Shown: positions 13,519 to 64,000 of the stretch, piece by piece
Position numbering within the stretch: the first letter of the stretch is position 1
How the letters are laid out: each line of letters begins with the position of its first letter
Source of the DNA: Saccostrea cucullata
Taxonomy: Eukaryota
Assembly (NCBI RefSeq): GCF_032062105.1
Contig: NW_026937089.1
Location: 1-64,000 of the forward strand
Reading direction: 5' to 3'
Length of the DNA stretch: 64,000 nucleotides
Position numbers and translations under genes: made by a program
Notes under the pieces: generated by a model
What the model was told of the DNA's origin: nothing
The model's database searches: none
The model's input: the letters and a program-made list of their open reading frames with translations, nothing else

Positions 13519-16500
13519 ATACAGTGGCTGGAACGTTATTGTTGACAAACAAAACGTGTAGAATCGTTCGTGTATCGTGAGTGATCGTTCGTTTAACGTG
13601 AAAGATCGTTCGTGTATCAGACTCAATCGTGTGCGTTTTTAATCGTGCGAGATCGTGCGTTTAGAATCGTGTAAATTTCGTTTTGTAAGTTTTTATCGGA
13701 ATGTTATTTCTAAAATAAGCATTTCCCTTGTTGGTTTTTCTTAATTGATTAAATAAAATCAAAATTAAATGAAAATGAACAATTAAGATAATAGAATGCA
13801 GAACGAACTAGTTATCGCTCGTAAACAAGCAATAAAGTAAGTCGTACAATATTCAATTCTCGTCGAATAGCGCGATCAATATTGTGTTAAACCGTACTTA
13901 GATCTCTTACGCCTTTCTGAAAAATCTGATTTAATTATTATTTACTTTCTATTGTGGTCTAGATAATCTTGAAATCAATTCATTGAAAATGATTTTTTTT
14001 TTCAAAGAAATAAAAATTTCTCAATGCTTACATAGCTACATGTAGTTAATCGACAAATATACATGCACACGGCATGATTTTCTGGAGTTTTGATTATCTG
14101 TGTTTATCTCTTGAATTTATTTGTAACTCATTTATTTTAAATTTCTGCAAATAAAAAAGTTGAATAATTAGAAAGTTTATCAGACATTGAATAAATGGAA
14201 ACATAAAGATAAAATTTATAATTATTATTTAAGTCATTCAATGCTGCCATTTTTGTTGAATCGTATCCCCCTTTCTTCATATCATTATATTTAATTCAAT
14301 CAAATTATACGACCCACATACATGTACACAGTCTAATAGAACGAACAAAATCCGTTTTCTTTGATCAGAGAATTACCTTAGAAATAATTACTTTTAATCT
14401 GAAATATTTAGTCTTGCAAATATTTAGTTACAAAAAATATCATTTTCCATTTTTTTTCAAAGTTTATGAAATAATATTAATAATTTTTTGAAATCTTAAA
14501 TAAGTATTAAGCTTTATTTCGTTTTGAATATATTAATTCCTAAATATTTTGAACTATTTTGAGTGAAGAAACGTGCGTTTGCGTCAACAATCGTGCAAGA
14601 TCGTGTAACGTGTAGAATCGTGAACGTGAAAGATCGTTCGTGTAACAGGTTCAATCGTGCGTTAATCGTGCGGAATCGTTCGTGTAACGTGATCGTTCGT
14701 GTAAGTTGTCAACAATAACGTTCCAGCCACTGTACCTGTGACAGCTGGAGACTGGGGATAATCTCCTGGTATTATAGCAGTACTTTGGGATCCACCGACA
14801 AGTTCACAGTGATCCTGTCCTGATCCGCTCCCGTCTCCAATGTTGTAAAATGTCGTTGTTAAGTTTTCACCAAGGAATAATTTATATCTGAAATGCAAGT
14901 GAACCAACAATATATTTGACAACTCGTTTAAAGACTGAAAACCTGTATTCCACAAAAAAAAAAAAAAAAAAAAAAACAATCAGGAAGGGTTGCGATAACT
15001 TTTTTTCAGATACACTGTATGTTTCAATCAATTTACATATCCGGTGCAGTCTTCATTCATGTCAATATTAGATGTTTTTGTGAAACAGGAAAGACTTAAG
15101 AACTGACCATTTCGTGAAAGAGAGAATTGTTCTCGGGGACCATTGTTTTGAGATTTGTTTTTTCTCTCGCAGAATTGACAGTTTTAAACCTAACCCATAA
15201 AATGTGCCAAAATGGTTAACCACTTAATCAATATAACATCACGACTGATGCTTATAAAGATTTTCACTTGTTTCATGTTGCTCCAGTATGCAGTGGATTG
15301 TGTTGTATTCATTACTATATATACACATGTATATGATTATTTTTTTTAAATTAAGGTCAGACGACACGTTCCTCAAAAATATATAATTTTTCCCAAGAAT
15401 TTGTCATTGAAGTCTAGGTACTTAAACAAGTTTCCATACAAAAAATTAGGGTACCTTACCAGGCATTTGGACAAGATACCACAGGGTAATATTTCTTATA
15501 TATTCCATACGGGTAATTACCTGAATGGCCTATATTACAATTTTTGATGTTCTTATATAAAAAACGTATTGAAAACTAGAGGTACTGTGAGCAATGAGCT
15601 CACTAAATGATACCCCCCGCTTCCCATATGGTTATAACTGATGACAAAGTCCATGTTTTGCTGTGGCCGGGAAACCCAAAATATGTGTCGGATCAAAAAG
15701 TAAAATAGAAGGTGCACAATGGCAATATGTAATAAAGATTCTTTTAAAGTTTCATTAAATTTCACTCAGTGGTATAAGAGGAGTTGCGGATAAGAGATGG
15801 GTACCCTAAAGCGTTAATCATTAATTTCCTTTACATATACGTAAATGAAATGGCAAAAATGACTTTTTTTTACCTTGTAGGAGAACACAAAACCACCCCT
15901 ACCAGTGGAGCAGATGTATATCCCGTTTCTTTGACATATCTTGGACCACCTGCACATCCATTAAATTCATTGCCATGGGTAAAGTTGTACTTGTACCAAC
16001 AGGAATTCGTGATATTAAAGCAGTCTGAAAGAGAGAGTGGAAATAACTGAAATGTATGATCATTTGCTAATGTTTTGTCAATGAGTAGGAATGCTTACTC
16101 CTTTTAGGCGCCTGATCCCATGCACCTCTGATGTTTTAGAGGTCCGTGTTTGCTCTGCTCCTAATTTGTATTTTGATAACTGTTCGTTATTTTTTCCATA
16201 TATCATCTCAGAATGAATGTACAGAACTAAAATACCTGGCGGGTTAGACTGTTGTCCACATACATAGGCTGGCGATGACCAGGTCCCATTACTCCTACAG
16301 GTAGAGGTCAAGGTTATTGAGGGGTCAGAGTTACAGGTGTAGGTAAGGATAGTTCCGACCTTTGTGGCTGTGACCATGACCGAAGTTAAGGTCGCGTCGG
16401 GATGAAGGTCAGGGCAGTCTTAAGAATTGAAAATAAATGTTATTTATCAATTCTCGAAGAGTGTTTTTACGAAAGCCAAATTTTTAATTCATTCACAACA

Positions 16501-27844: not shown

Positions 27845-30800
27845 TCAGCTGGAGGAATTTTCTTTGGCCTCTTTTTTCTCCTCTGAATTACTGGCAGAGT
27901 CTAATGCACTATCAGTCACATTTGCTGTATTATCTGTCTCTAGTTCAAAATTCTGGAGAAAAATAAAAACAATTCTTTTAGCAAAAACAAGTACTGTAAA
28001 ATCACATATTTTCGTGGGGTCAAATTTTCGGGGTTTGGGGAAAAATTCTTGGTTTGGGGGATTTCAATTCGCAGATGTAGAATTGTTGAGTAGTTATGTA
28101 TATAAAATTTTACATTTCGTGCTGGACATGAATTTGAGGGTTTCTTCATACCTCGAAAACAACGAAAATTTCCCCCCCCCCCCAAAAAAAATAACAAGAG
28201 GCCCAGGGGCCACATCACTCACCTGAGCAATTGGCTAGGAAAAAACATAAGTACTGAAAGTTTACTGGGGGGGGGGGGCTTGAATTTTACCCCCCCCCAG
28301 GGGGTCATGATTTAAGAATCACACATATAAATTCTAAGCATGGCTTTGAAGTACAAGGTTTCCCTATATATTCCTATGGGGTTTACCCCCGGGGGGTCAT
28401 GGAACAAATTTGAATTACCTTCCACAGGAGGTTAGGGGAAGAAAATTTTTCTATATATTCCTATGTGGATGTAGAACAAATTTGTTGAGGAGATTCCACA
28501 TAGTTGGCCCATGTATTTTTATATATAATTTTACATTTTGGCCCCACCCTTACCCCCGGCGGGTCATGGAACAAACTTGAATCTACACTGGACATGAAGT
28601 TTGAAAATTTTTAAAGATTTTTTTCTATATATTCCTATGTAAAACTTTGATCGGCCATACCTACCCCCGGGGGTCATGATTTGAACAAACTTGAATCTAC
28701 ACTACCTGAGGATGATTCCACATGAGTTTCATCTTTCCTGGCCCAGTGGTTCTTGAAAAGAAGATTTTTAAAGATTTTTCCTATATATTCATATAAATTT
28801 TGTGATTCCACAGTATAAACTTGAATCTACACTACCTGAGGATGATTCCACATGAGTTTCATCTTTCCAGGCCCAGTGGTTCTTGAGAAGAAGATTTTTA
28901 AAGATTTTTCCTATATATTCCTATGCAAAACTTTGATCAGCCATTTTGGCCCCACCCTAACCCTGGGGGTCATGATTTGAACAAATGTGAATGTGGCCCA
29001 TGTTATGAGAAGAAGATTTTTTAAAAATGCCATTATTTTTTCTCTATTCATGATTAGCCATTCTAAAAGAATATATACCAATGGTTGAAATTTGTTCTTG
29101 AGAAGAAGATGAAAATGTGAAAATAATTTATATGATTCAGGTGAGCTAAAAAAAATATATTTGTGATTCCACAGTATATGTACTTGATTCTTCATACATG
29201 CATGTACTCCATAGTTGTAGAAATTTACATGTATGTATCAAGAAGTTTTATTATAGACTTCTAAAAGAATATATACCATATAGTTGCATAAAAAATAATT
29301 TACATGATTAATTTACAGTGTATTTCATGAATTTTATCACACCTAGAGTGAAGATCAGTTTTTAGATCAATACATATTACATAAGAATAGCTCACCTCCA
29401 GTTCCCTCATAATTTCATCCATAAAATCTGTAGAATTGTTTTTGTATGCTACTGCAGCACGAATTGCATCTTTAAATAACTGCAAGTATGGAATAAATAA
29501 TCAGTGAAGATTTATATTCAATGCAATTTCAATCCAGCTTTGGAAAATCATTGTTTATTCAGCAAAATGTAATCCAGTGGTGAAATTTGTCAGGGAGGTA
29601 TAAACGTTGCAAAATCTATTCCATTTCTGAGTAGCATGGCATATGTTGCATTATTTGAATATTCTTACATATACTGTATACAGGTTTATTTTCGCCCCAT
29701 GTTATATTCTCCCTTTCACACTTGCGCCAATGCGGACAAATATGCACTGTAAAAAGCCCCAATTTTAAATCTGCCCTGTCATAGTTTTAATCAAATATAT
29801 ATACTGTTATTTTTTGAATTCGCCCCATTTTAAATTCGCCCGAATTAGGGTAATGTGAATGGGGTGACAATAAACAGGGGCGAATATGTCCCTGTATACA
29901 GTACTACAATAATATGATTACCAGTACATGTAATACATTTCATTTCTGCATAACTTTACTGAATTTTTCTTTCAGGTGAAAACTAGGTTCCTGCCACTTG
30001 TTTTTGTTTTAATAAAATATTTTGTTTGCCAAATCACATACCTTTACAACATTAGTGCCATCTGATGCCGACACAAAATAAAATGGCATGCCATGTTTTT
30101 TAGGGAATGTAAAAGCTTTCTTTGTTATTGAATAATCCACTGAAAAAAGAAAATATAAAAATTTAAATGTTAAATGAAGTCTTTACATGTTAATGCAGTG
30201 GACATCAAAATACTGATATTCTAAAATCGTATACCTATCCACCCTGAAATTATTTCAGAATAATACTATTTAAGAGCCATTATTACCAAAATTTTATTGT
30301 GATACAGTTAATTCAAAATAGTCATACACTGCATGCTATATAAGGTGTGAACCCATTGCTCACTGCAAAGTGGGCACAACAAAGATTACAGAATATGAGT
30401 AAAGTTAATCTAGGTCGAGTTGATCCAGAGATCAGTACATGTACTATACCTGTATAATAGATTTAAACCCCCCCTGCCCTCCCCCCACCAAAAAAAAGGA
30501 AAATGCTGTGAATAATAATTGAATTGTGACTAATGCTCTGTTCAGTTAATTATGCATACTCACCATCTATTTTATTTCCACAACATAAACATGGGATTTC
30601 AGGTCTGTATTCTCGAAGTTCTTTTAACCAGTTGGGTAGATTTTTATATGTCACTTTTCTAGTTGTGTCAAACACCTAATCAAGAATTAACAAAGTATAA
30701 AACAAAGAGTTGCCTTAAAAACAGGTTAAATGAACTTCAAAAAGTTGTTCTACATTCTAACATGTTCTTATATTTATAACAATCAGCTTATAATGATAAT

Positions 30801-53030: not shown

Positions 53031-56000
53031 TCAGGTTGGTTTTGGAATAAAACTAGGACCAGTGGCAGTGGAGGCAGATCTGGGGCGAACACTTGAGGAG
53101 TCCACTTTCTCAGCAGAGGACGGTAGACGTCGCTTTGTTGGACCACGCTGGACTTGGCGAGCTCGCGTTCCAAATCCCAGGCACTGTAGAGATTCTGTGA
53201 TGTACCTCTGGGCTGGGGAGACACATAAAAGTACCAGCAGCTTGGCATCTCCACCTGAAAAATAGTTCAGCAAGTCCTTTGAAGACATTTGCAAAGTTTT
53301 TCATATATGATACCAAAACGGAAATTTTATTTATTGATGGAAAAGAAAAATCTCACTACCACTATTCGTGTAATGTCGAAATTATATCCACAAATGATCC
53401 AGATAATTTCAAAAGTGTGTTGGTGATAGAATGACTTACTGTTGAAGTATTGTGTATTGGTGATACATGTAGAACTTAACAATAGAGTAAAAATGTTTGT
53501 GTATTGGTGATACATATAGAATGCTTTACCAATAGAGTATTTTTATTGGCAATAAAATGACTTGCCATTGGAATATTGATGTATTGGTGATGAATGACTA
53601 ACCAATGAGTCTTATTATTGGTGATGAATGACTTATGAGTCTTATGTATTTGTTATAGAATAGAATAACTTATCAATGATTCAAGTGTAGTGAAAATAGA
53701 ATGACTCATCATTTTTTATTGTATTGGTGATAGAATAACTCACCAACAGAATCTTGTATATTGCTGTCAGACAGAATAACTCACAAATAGAATCTTGTAT
53801 ATTTGAGATAAGAGTCTTGTGTGTTGAAGATAGAATGACTCATACTTAAGAGTCCTGTGCATTGGTGATAGACTTGCTAATGGAATCCATGGTATTTGAA
53901 AAGAATGACTTACCAATGGAGCCCTGTGTATTGGTGATAGAATGACTTATCAATAGAGCCCTGTGTATTGGTGATAATATGACTTACCAATGATGTCCTG
54001 TGTATCTTTGATAGAGTGACCTAACAAGGGGGTCTTGTGTTTTGGTGATGAATGACCTACCGATTGAGTCCTGTGTATTGGTGATAGGGTGACTTAACAA
54101 TGAAGTCCTGTGTATTGGTGATAGAGTGACTTAACAACGGAGTCCTGTGTATTGGTGATAGAGTGACTTAACAATGGAGTCCTGTGTATTGGTGATAGAG
54201 TGACTTAACAATGGAGTCCTGTGTATTGGTGATAGAGTGACTTAACAACGGAGTCCCATGCATTGGTGATAGTGTGACTTACCAATAGAGTCCTGTAGGA
54301 GATGGGTTAGCCTGGTATTCCTGTAGGGAACATGAGATCTGTGTTGATGATAGTGTGACTTACCAATAGAGTCCTGTAGGAGATGGGTTAGCCTGGTATT
54401 CCTGTAGGGAACATGAGATCTGTGTTGATGATAGTGTGACTTACCAAGAGTCCTGCAGGAGATGGGTTAGCCTGCTATTCCTGTAGGGAACATGAGATCT
54501 GTGTTGATGATAGTGTGACTTACCAAGAGTCCTGCAGGAGATGGGTAAGCCTGGTATTCCTGTAGGGAACATGAGATCTGTATTGGTGATATAGTATCTT
54601 ACCAATAGAGTCCTGCAGGAGATGGGTTAGCCTGGTATTCCTGTAGGGAACATGAGATCTGTATTGGTGATATAGTATCTTACCAATAGAGTCCTGCAGG
54701 AGATGGGTTAGCCTGGTATTCCTGTAGGGAACATGAGATCTGTATTGGTGATATAGTATCTTACCAATGTGTCCTGCAGGAGATGGGTTAGCCTGGTATT
54801 CCTGTAGGGAACATGAGATCTGTATTGCTGATAGTGTGACTTACCAAGAGTCCTGCAGGAGATGGGTAAGCCTGGTATTCCTGTAGGGAACATGAGATCT
54901 GTATTGGTGATATAGTATCTTACCAATAGAGTCCTGCAGGAGATGGGTTAGCCTGGTATTCCTGTAGGGAACATGAGATCTGTATTGGTGATATAGTATC
55001 TTACCAACAGAGTCCTGCAGGAGATGGGTTAGCCTGGTATTCCTGTAGGGAACATGAGATCTGTATTGGTGATATAGTATCTTACCAATAGAGTCCTGCA
55101 GGAGATGGGTTAGCCTGGTATTCCTGTAGGGAACATGAGATCTGTGTTGATGATAGTGTGACTTACCAATAGAGTCCTGTAGGAGATGGGTTAGCCTGGT
55201 ATTCCTGTAGGGAACATGAGATCTGTGTTGATGATAGTGTGACTTACCAAGAGTCCTGCAGGAGATGGGTTATATTCCTGTAGGGAACATGAGATCTGTG
55301 TTGTGATAGTGTGACTTACCAAGAGTCCTGCAGGAGATGGGTAAGCCTGTTATTCCTGTAGGGAACTTGAGATCTGTATTGTTGATATAGTATCTTACCA
55401 ATAGAGTCCTGCAGGAGATGGGTTAGCCTGGTATTCCTGTAGGGAACATGAGATCTGTATTGGTGATATAGTATCTTACCAATAGAGTCCTGCAGGAGAT
55501 GGGTTAGCCTGGTATTCCTGTAGGGAACATGAGATCTGTATTGGTGATATAGTATCTTACCAATAGAGTCCTGCAGGAGATGGGTTAGCCTGGTATTCCT
55601 GTAGGGAACATGAGATCTGTATTGCTGATAGTGTGACTTACCAAGAGTCCTGCAGGAGATGGGTAAGCCTGGTATTCCTGTAGGGAACATGAGATCTGTA
55701 TTGGTGATATAGTATCTTACCAATAGAGTCCTGCAGGAGATGGGTTAGCCTGGTATTCCTGTAGGGAACATGAGATCTGTATTGGTGATATAGTATCTTA
55801 CCAATAGAGTCCTGCAGGAGATGGGTTAGCCTGGTATTCCTGTAGGGAACATGAGATCTGTATTGGTGATATAGTATCTTACCAATAGAGTCCTGCAGGA
55901 GATGGGTTAGCCTGGTATTCCTGTAGGGAACATGAGATCTGTATTGCTGATAGTGTGACTTACCAAGAGTCCTGCAGGAGATGGGTTAGCCTGGTATTCC

Positions 56001-59000
56001 TGTAGGGAACATGAGATCTGTATTGGTGATAGTGTGACTTACCAATAGAGTCCTGCAGGAGATGGGTAAGCCTGGTATTCCTGTAGGGAACATGAGATCT
56101 GTGTTCTGCCAGGGCTCCCAGGACATCAGCAAGGGCTGATAAACTCTTGTTGATGTTGGACGCTTCCCTGAGAGCAGCACCCTTCACTCCACTCATACCT
56201 TACAGAAAGGATAGAAATACATTTACAATGCAATTATACAAGTTAGATTGTCAATATGTACTTAGGTCTCCTTATCTACATACAGAAAACAAAAATATAG
56301 AGTTATCAATATCGGTGAAATATTTAATTTTAGCAAGACTCAAATTTAGCAATTTGTCCTTAAAAATCAGGATTAAATTTTAGTGAGAAGCCATTTTAGA
56401 AATTTTATAGTGCATAGATAAATAAAGATAACTTATAATGCGGAATAAATTTTAAGCAATGTGGAAATTTAGCAAATCTTAACACACTCCGTAAAAATCA
56501 AAAATAAAGATTTCCAAATCCAACTGCTGTTCTTAATATAATAGGATATTTCCTTACCCACACATTCACTTCCAGCTAAGTCGACAAGCTGAAGCTTAGT
56601 GCGGATCACGGCTCCCATCCCTGGGACAGAGGCTGCTGATTGGTCAGCACCAGACCAGGTGTTGGACAGGTTACCAAGGTTAGGGGCAGAGGACGTGGAA
56701 TAGGATCGCCCTCTTATATCACGCTGTACTGAAAAATTCAAAGACAAGAGTGATTATTCTTTACTGTTTATGGTACATCTAAATCCAGATTAACTTGATT
56801 GGTTTTTCAACAGAGATATAGTCAAATATATGCATATATATATAAGGGGAAAGTACTTTAAATATATGTCAAAAAAGAAACAAACAGATAAATAGAAATG
56901 CAAGAAAAATACAATCCTTTTAATCCCACATTAAGCAACTGTAACAGTTTTTACTATATATATATAGACTTCATATATATCAAAATTTACCTATCCATTA
57001 ATGAGAAACTTTGAAAAAATATTTTGTTTTGACAGCTTAGCAGTTAAATAATTTCTTCTAAAACTGTATAATGTGCACATATGGAATAAGAAAACTTCTA
57101 ACTTTAGTTAGTAAAATGTTTAATTGGATTTTTAAAAGAGGTGTATAGTACCAAAAATCACACCCACTCCACGGGTATATTTGTGAGAGATAGAAAAAGG
57201 AAACATTTGATACATGTATCAAAATGATTTTTATTGTTGTTATTTCATATAAAAACTGAAAGGTAAAAGGTACCAATGATACAATATTAATAAATGTCTC
57301 TATTCACTTACAATGGTAATTTTTGTTTGTTGGAATTTTTAATTCTTTAATCTTTGGGTTTTTTATTTACTATTTAAATATTGAAGAATTTACATAAATA
57401 ATTAAATGCACTTTTTCTGAAAAAGGTTAAAAGTTTTTCTTAAAAGCTGAAAATTTTACTCAAAAGGGAAATCAAAACATTTTATTCTAAAAAAATACAT
57501 ATATTTCACTAATTATTCATTTTTTAAAAAATGCATAAAATACGATTATAATATTTTGTAGTGCAAATAGATGTACATGTACAACCAGATGTAAAACCAG
57601 ATTGAGTCGCTATAGACAAAGTCAGTTAAAAACCTGTTAATATGGTTACATTAATATTTTAATTCTACCAATAAATGAAATTTGAATCAAATTGAATGCT
57701 ACTGTTATAAATATATCCTGTGTTTTAAATGCCTTTCTGTTTTTCCATATATCTTTTCCTTCACGATTGCAAAGCTTTGTTTGGTAAATGCTGAACTTCT
57801 CTAAAGTTAACCAGAGACATACATGTATTTGTCTCTGAGTTAACATGGCAAAAGCCAATGGATGAAAAAAGAACACCAAGACTGAAAATAAATTCAATGA
57901 GGTAACACAACCAAAAGATTCAGGAAAAAAGATCTGAAAACAAAACTGTAAAGGAACACTGAACTAAACCAACCAGAGTAGACTTATTGGTAAACAAACA
58001 GGTTTTTGTCTTTGGGACAACAAACTTACTAATTTTGAGATTAGAAGGAATATTATTGAAGAAATCCTTGAAATGTTTTGTCGACCTTGGTGAATTTGGT
58101 GACCTAGGTGAACTCACTAATAAAGTAAAAAATGCAAGAATTCACAGACAAAATGAAAATCAAATAGATTTTAATATGTACTGAATACTCTTTAAATCAT
58201 TTGCAGACCTATTTCGAGAGATCAAAAAGGAAACTTTATTCATGTAATTGTATTTAAAATCAAAGTTTTATTTTTTACGAAAAAAATGGAAAGAAATTTT
58301 TTTTGTAATTTGGTATCTATGAAATACTCAAGCTTAAAAGTAGCTATATAACAAAAGAATTGTACCTTTTTATCACAACCAATAACATCCCCATGCATAC
58401 AAAAATTAATGAAACCATAGTATACAATGAATATATGTATATATATTATTTTTCACACTATATAACTTATATTTACATTTGCAAATGTTTTCCTTTATAT
58501 AACGCCACTGAAAGCAATGCATATCTATAACTGTATAAATACAGGTACAGGGTCAAGAGGTCATAGGCGTGCAATATAAACGTACACAGAAAAAAATTTC
58601 TCTGTGATGTCATAATGGGTCAACGCGCGTTCAGTGGATTACATACATGCCGCTGGGTTTGAAAAATAATGCATTTCAAACGTTAAAAGTCACACACAAT
58701 CAGGTAAATATAACGTATGAATAAGTCACAAATGTAAATATAAGTAATAAGGTAACATTCTAAAACATCTATCGGGCTATGTTGAACAAGACACATAAAT
58801 TCATCATAAACTGCCCTTCTGGCTTTAGTAAATCTTATTGTTAGTTGTATCAGGCTCCTATTTATATCCCGACAGATATTTAAAAATGATACCTTATTTC
58901 TTAATTACACTGCATGTTTAAGAAATATGATTGAAAAATACATCATTTTCATGTGAATAAATATGCATGTCTATAGTAAACACAATCACATTAGCAATAT

Positions 59001-62000
59001 AAATACAACACACTGAAAAAATGACAATAGAACAGAATACATACAATCTTGAGAAGATCCTGAAGAAGTCTTGGAGAAGAAGCTTGGAGCCTGGGAAATA
59101 ACGGTCAAGGTCACCACAAGGTGAGAACGACTCGAGTGTTCATGTACCATGGTTGCCGATTCTCTCCTGGTTCTGAGGCCATGTTGAACAAGACACATGA
59201 CATCATAAACAGTGTCCACCTGTCTGTAATTAGTAAATGTACATGTATATATGTTAGTTGTAGCAGGCTTAAAATGAAATATGACTGTCTAGCTGATATA
59301 AACTTCTTACTTTGACAACAGCATAGAAACATTGACTGTACCATCAGTACTTAATTACTAAAACTGCCTATCTGATAAAAGCTTCCTTACTTTGAGGACA
59401 GTGTAGAAACACTGACTGCCTGGTTGATACAATACTTACTTTGAGGACAGTGTAGGAAGGTTGACTGCCTAGCTGATATAATACTTACTTTGAGGACAGT
59501 GTGGGTACACTGACTGTGCCATCAGTACTTGTGTTGATGTCATGTTTGATACTGGGGTCATTACTGAGAAGATCCCTGATCTCGTTGTTGTATATCTCCA
59601 GCACAGACACCTCTATCTTGTGTGTGGCTGATTGTTTCTCTGATATTAACCTTCCATGAAAGAAATCAACTTAATGTGTTATTTTCATTACCTTAGATAA
59701 AGTTCATTTATGATTATAAATTTCAATCCTCATTAAAGACTTGTTACGGATACAATTATAAACCACTACCTAAAGAGTTCTCTTGCTGCCCGTGGTATGA
59801 CCCCTTCATCTCTGTGGGGATCCCTAGAGGGGTTGTAATCTTCGTTTTTATGACTCCCCAGCATGGTATGTGTCTTACCACTCCCTGTCTGTCCATAGGC
59901 CATAATACAAATATTGTACCTGTCCAAAATACATGTACCATAATTCAAATATTGTACCTGTCCAAAATACATGTACCATAATATAAATATGTACCTGTCC
60001 AATATACATGTACCATACCCTGGTAATACAAATTTTGTACCTGTTCAAAATACATAGGCCATAATACAAATATTGTACCTTTCCAAAATACATAGGCCAT
60101 AATACAAATATTGTACCTTTTCAAAATACATGTGTCATACATGTAATACAAATATGCTTTATGCAATATCCAATGACCGTTAAGCTTACCCATCCAACAG
60201 GGAAGTTAACATCGGCTGAACTTCTTCAAAGATATCATTCTGGGACTCTGTAGGGCTAAACACTCTGTAAAATAAGATTTAAAAGTCAATGTGATATATG
60301 ATAAATATAAATTAAAAAAAATTATTCTTAGTGAAGACTTACCTCTCATATTCAAAAACTTTGTTGTGTTTTGCTGTACGACAGCAAACATTCTCCTGAA
60401 ATTGGAAGAGAATTTTGTCCAAACACCTGAACAGTGTAACACATATTTTTTCACGCATGAAAATACATAAACAGTTACCTTTTTTGTTATACTAATTTCT
60501 CTGTTAATTATAATTAAAGACAATCTTGAATATTCTTTCTGAGTCACACTTACATCATCAACAAAATGCACCACCACTTCTGAGCGAGTGCCTGGCCTGC
60601 AAAGATATTCATAAACAAAATTTTGATAATACATTTTAAAAAAACTTACAGCTGATACTTATAGGTCTAGACTTTCCATAATCAATAGTATACATATTGT
60701 GATTTCAAAGGAGGCTACCCCTAAAAAATTATATCTGATGGAATGAAATTTTTTTGCTATGAAATGTATATGTTGTAATAAAAGGCAAGTGTTTCAGTAT
60801 GACATTGACATCATTCCAAAATCTTTTAAAGTCTGAAAGTAAACTGTTTTTTCTTCATAAAAAAGCAATAAATCATTCAGAAATCTTACTTTCCTAGAGA
60901 TCCAGAATCCTCATTCCCGCAGTCAAACTCCATCAGTGGGCGAATTCTACAGTGAACTCGGATATTTCCTCTCAACTCCTGAGAAAACATAAAACAATCT
61001 TGAATCCATATTCTCATTCTCCACCATCAAGCTACTGTATATAAACCAAAATATAAATTTGCAACCAATCTCAAAATGACTTGTTATCCACTGTATTTGA
61101 CTTTTTGGTTCACATTTACAGGGAGACAACTCAGTCTTTGGTAAATTTAATGTCGTTGGTGAGTTCCCTTAATTTTAGACTGACCATGAGGATATTGTGA
61201 AGCTCCTGTCTCCGTTTCTTCTCCTTGGCGTGCCGCTCCGTGATCTCCTGTAGAGCCAGCTCCATATTGGTCACCTGCGACTGGAGAGAGGTCATGCTGG
61301 AATTCTGGGATTGAAACACCTGCCTGTGGCGCTGGACTACTTTGTTGGCCTGAGTGGTGTACTTCTGAAACTCCTCAGGTATATCTATGGCAATGGACTG
61401 GAGTGATCTGAGATCATTTCTAATGGTCTAAAAATAAAATACAATTTTTTTCTAAATCCAAGTAGTATCATGTGAGAAAGACTTTCAAGGAATCTTGATA
61501 GTATTTGAATAATATTCAAAAGAAAAGTGTTGAAAACTGATACTGATAAAATTATGCTGAAATAGTACCTGTAAGTATATTCTAAAAGAACATGTAAAGA
61601 AAGAGAAAGAGAGGGAGCAGAGACAGATCTATATAACAATATGTCTTTGAAGTACACTTTTCATTCAATTTATTGATTGTTTATTATAAAGTAATTTGAG
61701 GTATACCTCTAACTCTCTGTGTAACTTAATTGCTGTCCCTGATACGTCACTACGGAACTGCTGCTCCGACTCCACCTGGCCATTGAGTGAGGAGTTTTCT
61801 TGTCTGACACTTTGCACTGTGCCATGTAGTTGAGCAAGTTTGAGATACAACATTGCATTTTCAGTTTCAAGCTGGGCAACTCTCTCATCTTTTGCCTAGA
61901 AAAGGATAAAGTACTTGTACTTAACAGGTCCAGTACAATCAGTACATTTAGCTACGTAGGTAGAATTACCTACGTAGCTTTATTTACCTACCTCAGGTAG

Positions 62001-62887
62001 CTTGATTTAGCTACCAAATGAATTTATTTCTATAAAAAAGCAATTTTCTCAGGATGTGCAAAAACTATCATTTTGATGCAGTGATCATTTTCAACTTTGA
62101 ACTCATCTGAAAACAATTCATGAAAAATTCCCTCTTGAAGAAATGTCTTTTTCTGCGCAATTGAAATCAAAGTTTTGGGGCTATGTATGACAGTTAGAGC
62201 AGTTACTCCTTGAATGAAATGACAAAGAAATCCAGTTCTGTTTAACACGATAATAGGTCAGTAATTATTCAGCACAATGTGAAGTAATCATACTCAGTCA
62301 TGCCTCACCGCACGGACAGCTAACCAAACAATGGATTATATGTTTTGCTCTAAATTGACCAAACACAGCGATGTTTAAACTATCTCTGCTTTGGAATGTT
62401 TTTTAAAGTCTCCCTAGTATAAATATCAATAGTCATTTAACTGCGATTTTTTGTCTCTTTTCCATAAAAAGAAAACTTACATTGAAATAGCTAAATCAAG
62501 CTACCTGAGGTAGGTAAATAAAGCTACGTAGGTAATTCTACCTACGTAGCTAAATGTACTGATTGTACTGGACCTGCTTAACGGCTTACGTTTTTTTCCC
62601 TTCAAATTTTGTTGCTTTTTTCGGACGGAGGGGGTATCATAATACTAAATACACAAACTTTTAACATTTCCAAATCCTGATTCGATAAAACATTAGTCTA
62701 TATGATTTTATTATGTCAATACTTAATGTCTGTGAATTCCTGTGTTTTGTGTTGTATTTTGAATTTTCCCTGCATTTATCGGGTTGAATATACCCATATC
62801 TAATGCTTTCCAACTTACATGTATTTCTTTCTCTTGTCTTTTAACCTTTTCTGCATAAAAGTGTGTTCTGTCTATGCCTAGTGGCAT
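53031..62887 (-). CDS. KIF25: Kinesin-like protein KIF25 (kinesin-14 type, C-terminal motor), 13 exons
   Basis: Exons (minus): 62819-62887, 61707-61895 ([21 protein letters not shown]), 61185-61427, 60890-60978 ([14 protein letters not shown]), 60554-60596, 60343-60395, 60190-60264, 59770-59919 ([19 protein letters not shown]), 59489-59650 ([11 protein letters not shown]), 59045-59223 (VHEHSSRSH), 56558-56728 ([12 protein letters not shown]), 56043-56198 ([30 protein letters not shown]), 53031-53254. HxxSSRSH and DLAGSEC variants are KIF25-like. Confidence 0.9.
53420..54280. repeat. Older, diverging ~38-bp tandem array derived from the KIF25 exon-12 donor region
   Basis: Unit aatggagtcctgtgtattggtgatagagtgacttaac, becoming progressively more degenerate toward 53420. 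Confidence 0.85.
54270..56105. repeat. 79-81-bp tandem array (22 extra copies) of the KIF25 exon-12 3' end plus 5' splice site
   Basis: Unit accaatagagtcctgcaggagatgggttagcctggtattcctgtagggaacatgagatctgtattggtgatatagtatctt. On the minus strand: [19 protein letters not shown] codons followed by G|GTAAG. Confidence 0.95.
59295..59530. repeat. ~49-bp repeats duplicating the KIF25 exon-9 end and donor
   Basis: cttactttgaggacagtgt..ctgactg copies give donors at 59488 (genuine), 59439, 59390 and a more diverged copy at 59310. Confidence 0.85.
59894..60155. repeat. ~38-bp repeats duplicating the KIF25 exon-8 acceptor and exon start
   Basis: cataggccataatacaaatattgtacctgtccaaaata copies give AG acceptors at 59920 (genuine), 59958, 59995, 60041, 60079, 60117. 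Confidence 0.9.
61925..62576. mobile_element. Young MITE with ~87-bp perfect TIRs and 5-bp TSD (CTTAA) in KIF25 intron 1
   Basis: cttaa|caggtccagtacaatcagtacatttagctacgtaggtag... / ...ctacctacgtagctaaatgtactgattgtactggacctg|cttaa. Confidence 0.9.
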
Positions 62888-63068
62888 GTTTTCTACTGAA
62901 TAATTCACTTTTCACAGATTCATTGAAAAACGCGTCTGAACACAACAAACCATCGAATACTTCGGATATCTATATTGAAAGAGTGTGATAACTCCGAATG
63001 TGTACCGAAAGCTACTTTCACTTTTGTTCCTCCCCATTCTGGAGAATTCCATTTCCGTCAACAAAACC
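62888..63068. promoter_or_regulatory. Putative bidirectional promoter between KIF25 and TTLL12
   Basis: The divergent ATGs are only 181 bp apart. Confidence 0.65.
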
Positions 63069-63221
63069 ATGCCTCATCTCACGAAAGATGAAGAGGTTAA
63101 AGAATCAGACCAGCAACCTAATGAATATCATCAATTTGTAGAATCTCATGGAACTCAGCTGATTGCTTCCGGAGTTCCAGATTACTATTGGCCGAAACTT
63201 TTCGAAAAACTGAGCAAAGAG
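63069..63221 (+). CDS. TTLL12: Tubulin-tyrosine ligase-like 12, first coding exon (gene continues beyond window)
   Basis: MPHLTKDEEV...EYHQFVESHGTQLIASGVPDYYWPKLFEKLSKE|GT resembles the TTLL12 N-terminal motif (F...HG..L.ASGVP..YW..L..KL..E-VFDAG). Confidence 0.8.
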
Positions 63222-64000
63222 GTAGACATTCTTTATATTGCAGTATTGTACATGGCTACATGCCAGTATGCAATGTCAGTGCTCATCATGACATGTACAT
63301 GTTGTAAATATTTTCTTGTATGTATGGTATAAAAATTTCACAATGGGTCCATTGTCACAAACTTTGAGAATAAAAAAAATCTCCATTTAACTCTTCAGAA
63401 ATACTTAGTTGACAGCTAACACTATTCTCAAAATTGCTGTCATAAAATTGAGAACACCCCCAGACTGAGACCCAAGACAACTATGATTTATGATGGTAGA
63501 CCCAAAAGTTTTTCTTTAGTTAGTGTCGATCATCAGTCCACCAGGTTTACTTGTTCTTGGGTTACAATGTACTTGAGTAAATTGAATGTCCTAGCACTCT
63601 CTTGATGTTTACGCTTACATGTATAAGAGGAAAGAAGACATTTATATTTTATTGCTAGACCTGGAAGTGAACACAGGACCCCGGTATTTTAAGTTAAATT
63701 CTCAAATCACTGAGCTACCGAGGCTGATATATATGATCCATATGGCTCAAACCACTACATTCCCCTTTTGAATGATCATCGTCCTTGATTTTTGTAGACA
63801 TTCTGGATTCTTTAGTCCCTGATAGGACTTTCAACTGCAAGTCTTTATTATGTGTTCATGTGTGGAGAGAGGATGGGGGTTTCCACATAACCCAAATCAT
63901 CAGAGTCTAAAATCAGGGTCACAGCACCAAATGAAAATATTTGGTTTATCTGGGAATTAGATCTGGGCCTCTACATTACTACATATTAGTCAGGTGCTCT

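What the first reader, a model, noticed from the sequence alone, without database searches (positions are those of the whole stretch)
53420..56105. Polar tandem array of 22 decoy copies of a kinesin exon end plus its 5' splice site
Seen: the last ~60 nt of KIF25 exon 12 ([18 protein letters not shown]) plus GTAAG and ~15 further intronic nt are amplified as 79-81-bp units, giving 22 extra near-identical donors downstream of the real one (56042). Beyond them is an older 38-bp array of the same donor that decays with distance, and many of those copies have GTAAG mutated to GTTAAG. Homogeneity is highest next to the exon, and a 79+81+81+81 higher-order period is visible. Inference: repeats are repeatedly born at the exon-intron junction and pushed into the intron. 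The array may tune splicing, seed new exons or homogenise coding sequence by conversion.
Basis: partly seen in the sequence, partly recalled or inferred. Interest (0 to 1): 0.7.

Follow-up and report, generated by a model that had tools for sequence, protein, structure and literature searches.

The report
Splice-donor minisatellite in oyster kinesin gene
The end of one exon of an oyster kinesin gene, with its splice signal, is repeated 22 more times in the next intron in front of an older, shorter repeat of the same signal; the copies are likely ignored by the cell, as in known human and lancelet cases, but in the genes sampled from this genome such repeats begin at splice signals about four times more often than chance.

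Summary
The array is real. It holds 22 copies (73-81 bp) of the last 60 nt of KIF25 exon 13 plus its donor, then about 23 decayed 37-bp copies; together they fill 94% of the last intron. This is a known kind: lancelet 'mirages', the human F7 intron-7 VNTR, chicken 'exon stuttering'. This scan has also noted it before (68 notes, at least 26 genomes, two in this genome).

A relative's spliced contigs join donor 1 (the real one) to the last exon. Every extra donor would break the motor domain. The exon shows no conversion. Another relative has the 37-bp tier directly behind the exon, so the 81-bp tier is likely younger and arose at the junction.

Added here: in 819 kb from six gene families, 13 of 93 local minisatellites start across a splice junction (3.2 expected, p=0.0002), mostly donors. 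Likely a neutral by-product of a donor-biased birth or survival process.

The parts
53031..62887 (-). KIF25 kinesin gene, 14 coding exons (62887-62819, 61895-61707, 61427-61185, 60978-60890, 60596-60554, 60395-60343, 60264-60190, 59919-59770, 59650-59489, 59223-59045, 58116-58030, 56728-56558, 56198-56043, 53254-53031)
   Evidence: spliced translation 629 of 629 residues identical to P0017
56043..56198 (-). coding exon 13 (156 nt); its last 60 nt (56102-56043) are the source of the 81-bp unit
56037..56045 (-). authentic 5' splice site TTG|GTAAGT, intron starts at 56042
   Evidence: contigs of runs X1 and X3 (a relative) run from this exon end directly into exon 14
54262..56021 (-). young tier: 22 copies of exon end + donor + 21 intron nt, 73-81 bp; 13 distinct unit types among the 23 units; 10-unit higher-order period
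55943..56021 (-). copy 1 (79 bp): its 2-bp deletion shifts the frame and puts a TAA stop in the read-through frame at its own donor (55963)
53419..54261 (-). old tier: about 23 decayed 37-bp copies (about 14 exon nt + donor + intron nt); the first five have G+1>T
   Evidence: unit found only at this locus in the genome
53255..53418 (-). non-repeated remainder of the intron (about 165 bp) with the acceptor at 53255
53031..53254 (-). last coding exon 14 (end of the motor domain and tail)
59900..60155 (-). second junction array in the same gene: 38-bp units spanning the exon 8 acceptor, about 6 copies
59282..59516 (-). third junction array in the same gene: 49-bp units spanning the exon 9 donor, 2.7 copies plus a further decayed copy

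Best explanation
This is a minisatellite that begins across the exon 13 splice donor of oyster KIF25 and likely grew in two rounds by local tandem duplication, and the cell likely splices at the first donor and ignores the 22 copies, so the array is likely neutral. Steps: (1, shown) a 37-bp duplication and an 81-bp duplication both span the same donor and leave the exon intact. (2, inferred from one contig of a relative) the 81-bp tier is younger and pushed the 37-bp tier away from the exon. (3, inferred) growth was by slippage or unequal exchange, the last large event being a 10-unit block duplication. (4, shown in a relative's contigs, inferred for this animal) the first donor is used, as in the upstream-first rule shown for human F7. 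(5, predicted) leak to copy 1 gives a frameshifted motor; leak to copies 2-22 meets a premature stop at least 80 nt before the last junction and would be degraded. (6, shown in a sample, cause unknown) such arrays are several-fold over-represented at donors in this genome.
For: Anatomy. Local origin: the exon end and the 37-bp unit match only this locus in the 1.17-Gb assembly. Order of tiers: the X5 contig has a 37-bp-type unit right after donor+21 (24 of 31 letters by my eye comparison), and a second X5 contig (depth 24 against 4.65) continues with 30 letters identical to the TRF consensus of the 37-bp tier. First-donor use: X1 and X3 contigs cover the exon from 56121 and 56152, upstream of the unit start, and continue into exon 14; the named full-length oyster proteins read DSIGGDAK across this junction. 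Unselected decay: 14 of 23 old units have lost GT, and 8 of 22 young copies have frame-breaking lengths. No productive isoform from any of 22 donors. Precedent: F7 minigenes use only the most upstream of 5-9 identical donors (PMC1557585); lancelet mirages do not disturb splicing (PMC3087553, PMC3902484).
Against: No RNA from an animal known to carry the 81-bp tier was seen. X1 and X3 differ from the window (2 of 81 and 5 of 112 letters), are not on record as RNA (I read them as RNA from the exon-exon join), and contigs drop rare forms. All 22 young copies keep GT, which fits youth but also selection. The enrichment at donors means plain random slippage is incomplete as an explanation. Each unit also holds two acceptor-like sites (scores 7.5 and 6.3 against 6.7 and 10.4 for the flanking real acceptors), so internal splicing is conceivable. 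The tier order rests on one low-depth contig.
Confidence: 0.72

Rival explanations
1. The array tunes KIF25 output: extra donors draw U1 snRNP and divert part of the transcripts to frameshifted or decay-bound forms, in proportion to array length.
For: All 22 copies keep a scoring donor (8.5 or 6.9 against 8.5 for the real one), and donors 2-22 lead to a predicted decay-triggering stop. Human tandem repeats can change splicing (PMC10078293, passages).
Against: The F7 experiments show that downstream identical donors stay silent. The old tier lost its donors. The young tier is absent at the junction in a relative's contig. Similar arrays sit in unrelated gene families in this genome.
Confidence: 0.12
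2. The array is partly an assembly artefact, in particular the 10-unit block that occurs about twice.
For: The 10-unit period is strong, 9 of 23 units are identical, and no DNA reads of this individual or species could be laid.
Against: There are 13 distinct unit types with linked diagnostic variants, and units 10 apart still differ by 1.6 changes on average. The 37-bp tier is seen independently in run X5. Other genes hold arrays of the same design.
Confidence: 0.08
3. The array is raw material for new exons or introns, or homogenises the exon by gene conversion (first reader; the Rogers-type duplication model as cited in PMC3087553).
For: Each unit has AG and GT sites that could bound a 10- or 38-nt internal exon. 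14 of 22 copies are 81 bp, in frame and without a stop of their own.
Against: Copy 1 blocks read-through with a stop. The exon keeps the ancestral letter where 18 of 22 copies differ. The protein is identical to P0017 and the 51 residues are identical in other oysters. None of the six oyster-type read-through proteins that run past this donor (P0001, P0002, P0004-P0007) shows a second copy of the peptide.
Confidence: 0.08

Closest known systems
Human F7 intron 7 (IVS7) 37-bp VNTR (PMC1557585; seen: abstract and Discussion)
   Same: The first unit spans the exon-intron boundary; the real donor is followed by identical pseudo-donors; only the most upstream is used.
   Different: 5-9 copies in F7 against 22 plus about 23 here; two tiers of different unit length here; silence of the copies was shown by experiment in F7 and is inferred here.
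Lancelet 'mirage' minisatellites: Adh3, troponin C, globins BflGb6 and BflGb9, PGBD5 (PMC3087553 and PMC3902484; seen: matching passages; the original Adh3 papers not seen)
   Same: Tandem repeats spanning 5' or 3' exon-intron boundaries in a marine invertebrate, several per gene or genome, 10-160 bp units, end units left out of homogenisation, normal splicing.
   Different: A mollusc rather than a cephalochordate; the passages read give no test against random placement; length and somatic instability were shown there and not tested here.
Chicken 'exon stuttering' (Hron et al. 2026, PMC12954441; seen: abstract, first of two parts of section 7, matching passages)
   Same: [quoted passage not shown]
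   Different: Concentrated on GC-rich dot chromosomes and less regular; here the genome is AT-rich (33% GC background) and the arrays are regular and spread over many contigs.
Internal tandem repeats that create introns in human duplicated genes (PMC2812944; seen: matching passages)
   Same: Minisatellites at exon-intron boundaries.
   Different: There they alter transcripts; here no altered transcript or protein was seen.

Membership tests
mirage / exon-boundary minisatellite | tandem unit spans an authentic exon-intron boundary | tested here: met
   unit = 60 exon nt + 21 intron nt around donor 56042
mirage / exon-boundary minisatellite | minisatellite-size unit, head to tail, copies lie in the intron and the exon stays intact | tested here: met
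   81 and 37 bp units; protein 629 of 629 identical to P0017
mirage / exon-boundary minisatellite | local origin, not an interspersed repeat | tested here: met
   only this locus matches in the genome
mirage / exon-boundary minisatellite | copies carry intact splice signals, many but not all | tested here: met
   22 of 22 young and 9 of 23 old units keep GT
mirage / exon-boundary minisatellite | mRNA is spliced at the authentic site | tested here: inconclusive
   first-donor join seen only in contigs of a relative not known to carry the array
mirage / exon-boundary minisatellite | copy number varies between alleles or individuals | not testable with these tools
   one haplotype in the assembly; no reads of this species; differs from a relative's contig
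chicken-type exon stuttering | exon edge with splice site copied into the adjacent intron | tested here: met
chicken-type exon stuttering | GC-rich, repeat-dense chromosome setting | tested here: not met
   window 29-44% GC per 2 kb; sampled background 33%
regulatory alternative-donor cassette | downstream donors used, conserved, giving a defined product | tested here: inconclusive
   not conserved at the junction in X5 and no intact product predicted; usage not measured

The most novel reading that the evidence does not exclude
Oyster genomes have a mutational process tied to 5' splice sites, for example co-transcriptional damage or stalling where the spliceosome first binds, perhaps helped by small hairpins, that seeds minisatellites at donors about seven times faster than elsewhere in introns and can fire repeatedly at the same donor. 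About 4 in 10 local intronic minisatellites would then be copies of splice junctions, and splicing would leave a direct footprint in DNA.
Probability: 0.25. Interest if true: 0.65.

Novelty: new member of a known kind. Interest (0 to 1): 0.32.

Why it matters
The single array is ordinary for its kind. What may matter is the rate: in a sample of six gene families, 11 of 303 donors and 4 of 304 acceptors begin such an array, against about 3 in all by chance, and 27 of 95 local minisatellites carry a strong sense-strand donor against 6.7 expected. If this holds genome-wide, oysters offer hundreds to thousands of natural replicates (my extrapolation) for two open questions: why these repeats are born or kept at donors, and how general the upstream-first rule of donor choice is outside mammals. 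In practice such arrays can also mislead gene prediction and read mapping.

Tried and rejected
Reads: no RNA holder was listed. The five listed runs are low-share contig sets of relatives, so neither copy number nor donor usage could be measured. One search was dominated by interspersed repeats.

Weak first tests of enrichment, told in full: with raw HMM ends and a wide window, 13 of 246 kinesin ends were hits against a 3.5% background. A 24-nt probe test gave 18 of 607 against 1.7-2.4% for unmasked decoy sites. After masking interspersed repeats it gave 17 of 607 against 67 of 5751 sense and 43 of 4444 antisense decoys (odds 2.4 and 2.9, p=0.002 and 0.0005). These backgrounds include satellites and arrays at exons I had not annotated. 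The probe test also misses the KIF25 exon 13 array itself, so it undercounts.

Rejected: a 4-unit higher-order repeat (p=0.15) and polarity in the young tier; general polarity; an interspersed origin of the unit.

Hairpin idea: a 7-bp inverted repeat brackets this donor and the 399-nt stretch folds better than shuffles (z -3.8), but a single junction or unit does not (z -1.3 to +0.4; 25% of other donors are as stable). Donors with arrays fold somewhat better than others (n=11, z -0.92 against 0.16, p=0.003); this was post hoc and the window can include part of a second copy, so it is only a lead.

Acceptor enrichment is not established: 15 motif-bearing arrays against 8.1 +/- 2.6 expected, max 16 of 300 draws.

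Families searched but not used for junctions because the top matches were mostly single long exons: DEAD, AMP-binding, the top 30 kinase loci; they served only for repeat masking.

Literature: no paper held all of oyster, minisatellite, intron and splice site. The listings showed no title on such arrays in molluscs. The library lacks most subscription journals, and no supplements were read.
Full report
The gene. The array lies in the last intron of a kinesin gene on the minus strand. The 51 residues of the exon before it are identical in oyster proteins named KIF25. A spliced alignment gives 14 coding exons whose product equals P0017 at 629 of 629 residues. The exon is 56198-56043, the donor G is 56042, and the next acceptor leads into 53254. 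The intron is 2788 bp.

The young tier. Splitting at a fixed 10-mer gives 23 units from 56102 to 54262. Unit 0 is the real exon end; 22 are copies (14 x 81 bp, 5 x 79, and 80, 78, 73). All keep TG|GTAAG; 10 read GTAAGT and 12 GTAAGA. There are 13 unit types, the commonest present 9 times. There is no gradient: distance to the exon unit does not rise with position (rho -0.13, p=0.57), and the closest copies are 5, 15 and 22. Against 5000 shuffles of unit order, lag 10 stands out (1.6 differences against 4.8, p=0.0002) and lag 4 does not (p=0.15). The last large event was therefore likely a block duplication of about 800 bp.

The old tier. From 54261 to about 53419 lie 23 units of about 37 bp that match the native junction at 19-31 of 35 letters (chance 19.6 +/- 2.2) and decay with distance (rho -0.60, p=0.002). 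The first five carry a G+1>T substitution; 9 of 23 keep GT. Both tiers together fill about 2.62 kb, 94% of the intron. Neither unit occurs elsewhere in the assembly.

History. In run X5, a relative with 15 other letters in 190, one contig follows the exon and 21 intron bases and then enters a 37-bp-type unit, with no 81-bp copy; a second, five times deeper contig repeats the 37-bp consensus exactly over the 30 letters shown. It rests on one low-depth contig.

Use of the donors. No RNA run was listed. Contigs of runs X1 and X3, from another relative, join the exon end at 56043 directly to exon 14, so they are spliced and use the first donor; whether that animal carries the array is unknown. Copy 1 is 79 bp: its donor shifts the frame and replaces the end of the motor domain, and every later donor includes a TAA at copy 1, at least 80 nt before the last junction, which would trigger decay under the 50-55 nt rule (recalled; not tested in oysters). 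The exon keeps the letter at 56068 that 18 of 22 copies have changed, and X1, X3 and X5 show no difference there, so there is no sign of conversion.

How common. KIF25 itself has three such arrays among 26 junctions, and a decayed copy of a fourth junction. I then sampled other genes, leaving KIF25 out. Matches used: kinesin 117 of 135, myosin 67 of 78, Aldedh 12 of 15, HECT 21 of 21, SNF 89 of 115, kinase 45 of 129. Rows were dropped as likely alleles, single-exon genes, KIF25 itself, or not fetched; I chose the kinase rows for being short exons. The 351 matches gave 700 candidate ends, of which 607 passed a splice-site score of 5. In 819 kb there were 208 arrays, 162 not interspersed, 95 with period 20-200 and score 80 or more. 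Fifteen of 95 begin across a called junction with the body in the intron, none with the body in the exon, against 3.2 by random placement (max 10 of 2000). Removing two duplicated pairs leaves 13 of 93 (10 donors, 3 acceptors; p=0.0002; p=0.0006 if two doubtful calls are also discounted). Non-kinesin families alone give 6 of 50 against 1.7 (p=0.009). A test free of annotation agrees: 27 of 95 unit consensuses hold a strong sense-strand donor against 6.7 +/- 2.3 in random windows, while antisense motifs are at background (9 against 8.0); acceptors are only borderline (15 against 8.1 +/- 2.6). Junction arrays are also longer (median 9.9 copies against 2.55 for arrays without a motif).

Limits of that test. 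Junctions are predicted from HMM ends and a scoring matrix seeded on KIF25, not from RNA. Cruder versions gave weak results. Junction arrays are richer in GC (0.38 against 0.33), so a liking of minisatellites for GC-richer seeds, or better survival of long arrays there, could explain part of the excess without any link to splicing.

Mechanism. Most likely a local duplication across the donor, harmless because the exon and its first donor stay intact, grown by slippage or unequal exchange, with spare donors silenced by the upstream-first rule shown for F7 and leak removed by decay. The duplications and their consequences for the frame are shown; growth mode, silence in this animal and decay are inferred. 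The cause of the donor excess is open.

Comparison. The same design is in print for human F7 (PMC1557585: abstract and Discussion read), lancelet genes (PMC3087553, PMC3902484: passages) and chicken dot chromosomes (PMC12954441: abstract, part of section 7, passages). PMC2812944 and PMC10078293 were seen as passages. My searches found no mollusc report. Earlier notes of this scan hold the same words 68 times in at least 26 genomes and include two cases in this genome; one note reports a donor-only excess in an annelid. These are unchecked AI notes and are not counted as support.

Verdict. The sampled excess at donors is the part worth a genome-wide follow-up. Interest 0.32.

Noticed in passing
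window 58775-58833 (-): A 77%-identical copy of the exon 10 acceptor and exon start lies about 390 bp downstream, inside the next intron rather than in tandem.
   Followed up: partly
window 58030-58116 (-): An 87-nt exon present in the 629-aa protein P0017 and absent from the 601-aa oyster proteins: an in-frame cassette exon in a loop of the motor domain.
   Followed up: partly
L012:3238-5014 (G000:C21725:192037-193813): Another kinesin has a 54-bp x 33 donor array at the exon encoding the same HIPYR motif region, at a different intron position; the same contig has 40-bp acceptor arrays of 24 and 43 copies shared by two neighbouring kinesin paralogs.
   Followed up: partly
G000:C10361 and C11781 (HECT), C20375, C15047, C12612, C34: Further donor arrays of 2-30 copies; many more arrays away from called junctions carry strong sense-strand donors and probably mark exons I did not annotate.
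   Followed up: partly
run X5 against window 54074-54221 and 56022-56211: Unexplained: X5 differs at 15 of 190 letters around the exon, yet its deeper contig matches the 37-bp intronic consensus at 30 of 30 letters shown. A mixed sample or two divergent haplotypes could explain it.
   Followed up: no
window 61930-62020 and 62480-62580: An inverted pair of about 100 bp, about 450 bp apart, in KIF25 intron 1; similar 18-bp units occur in L010, so probably a small interspersed element.
   Followed up: no
window 62979-63332 (+) and 51472-51708 (+): A gene starts head to head with KIF25 within about 130 bp (looks like TTLL12), and a lipase-like last exon ends tail to tail; both names are recalled, not tested.
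   Followed up: no
window 6077-6424 and 16078-16419 (-): Two near-identical cysteine-containing exon-like frames 10 kb apart, suggesting a local segment duplication.
   Followed up: no
window 1339-2109, 28687-28924, 45303-47400: Arrays of a 166-bp satellite also seen in many other loci; resembles the known oyster satellite of that length (recalled).
   Followed up: no
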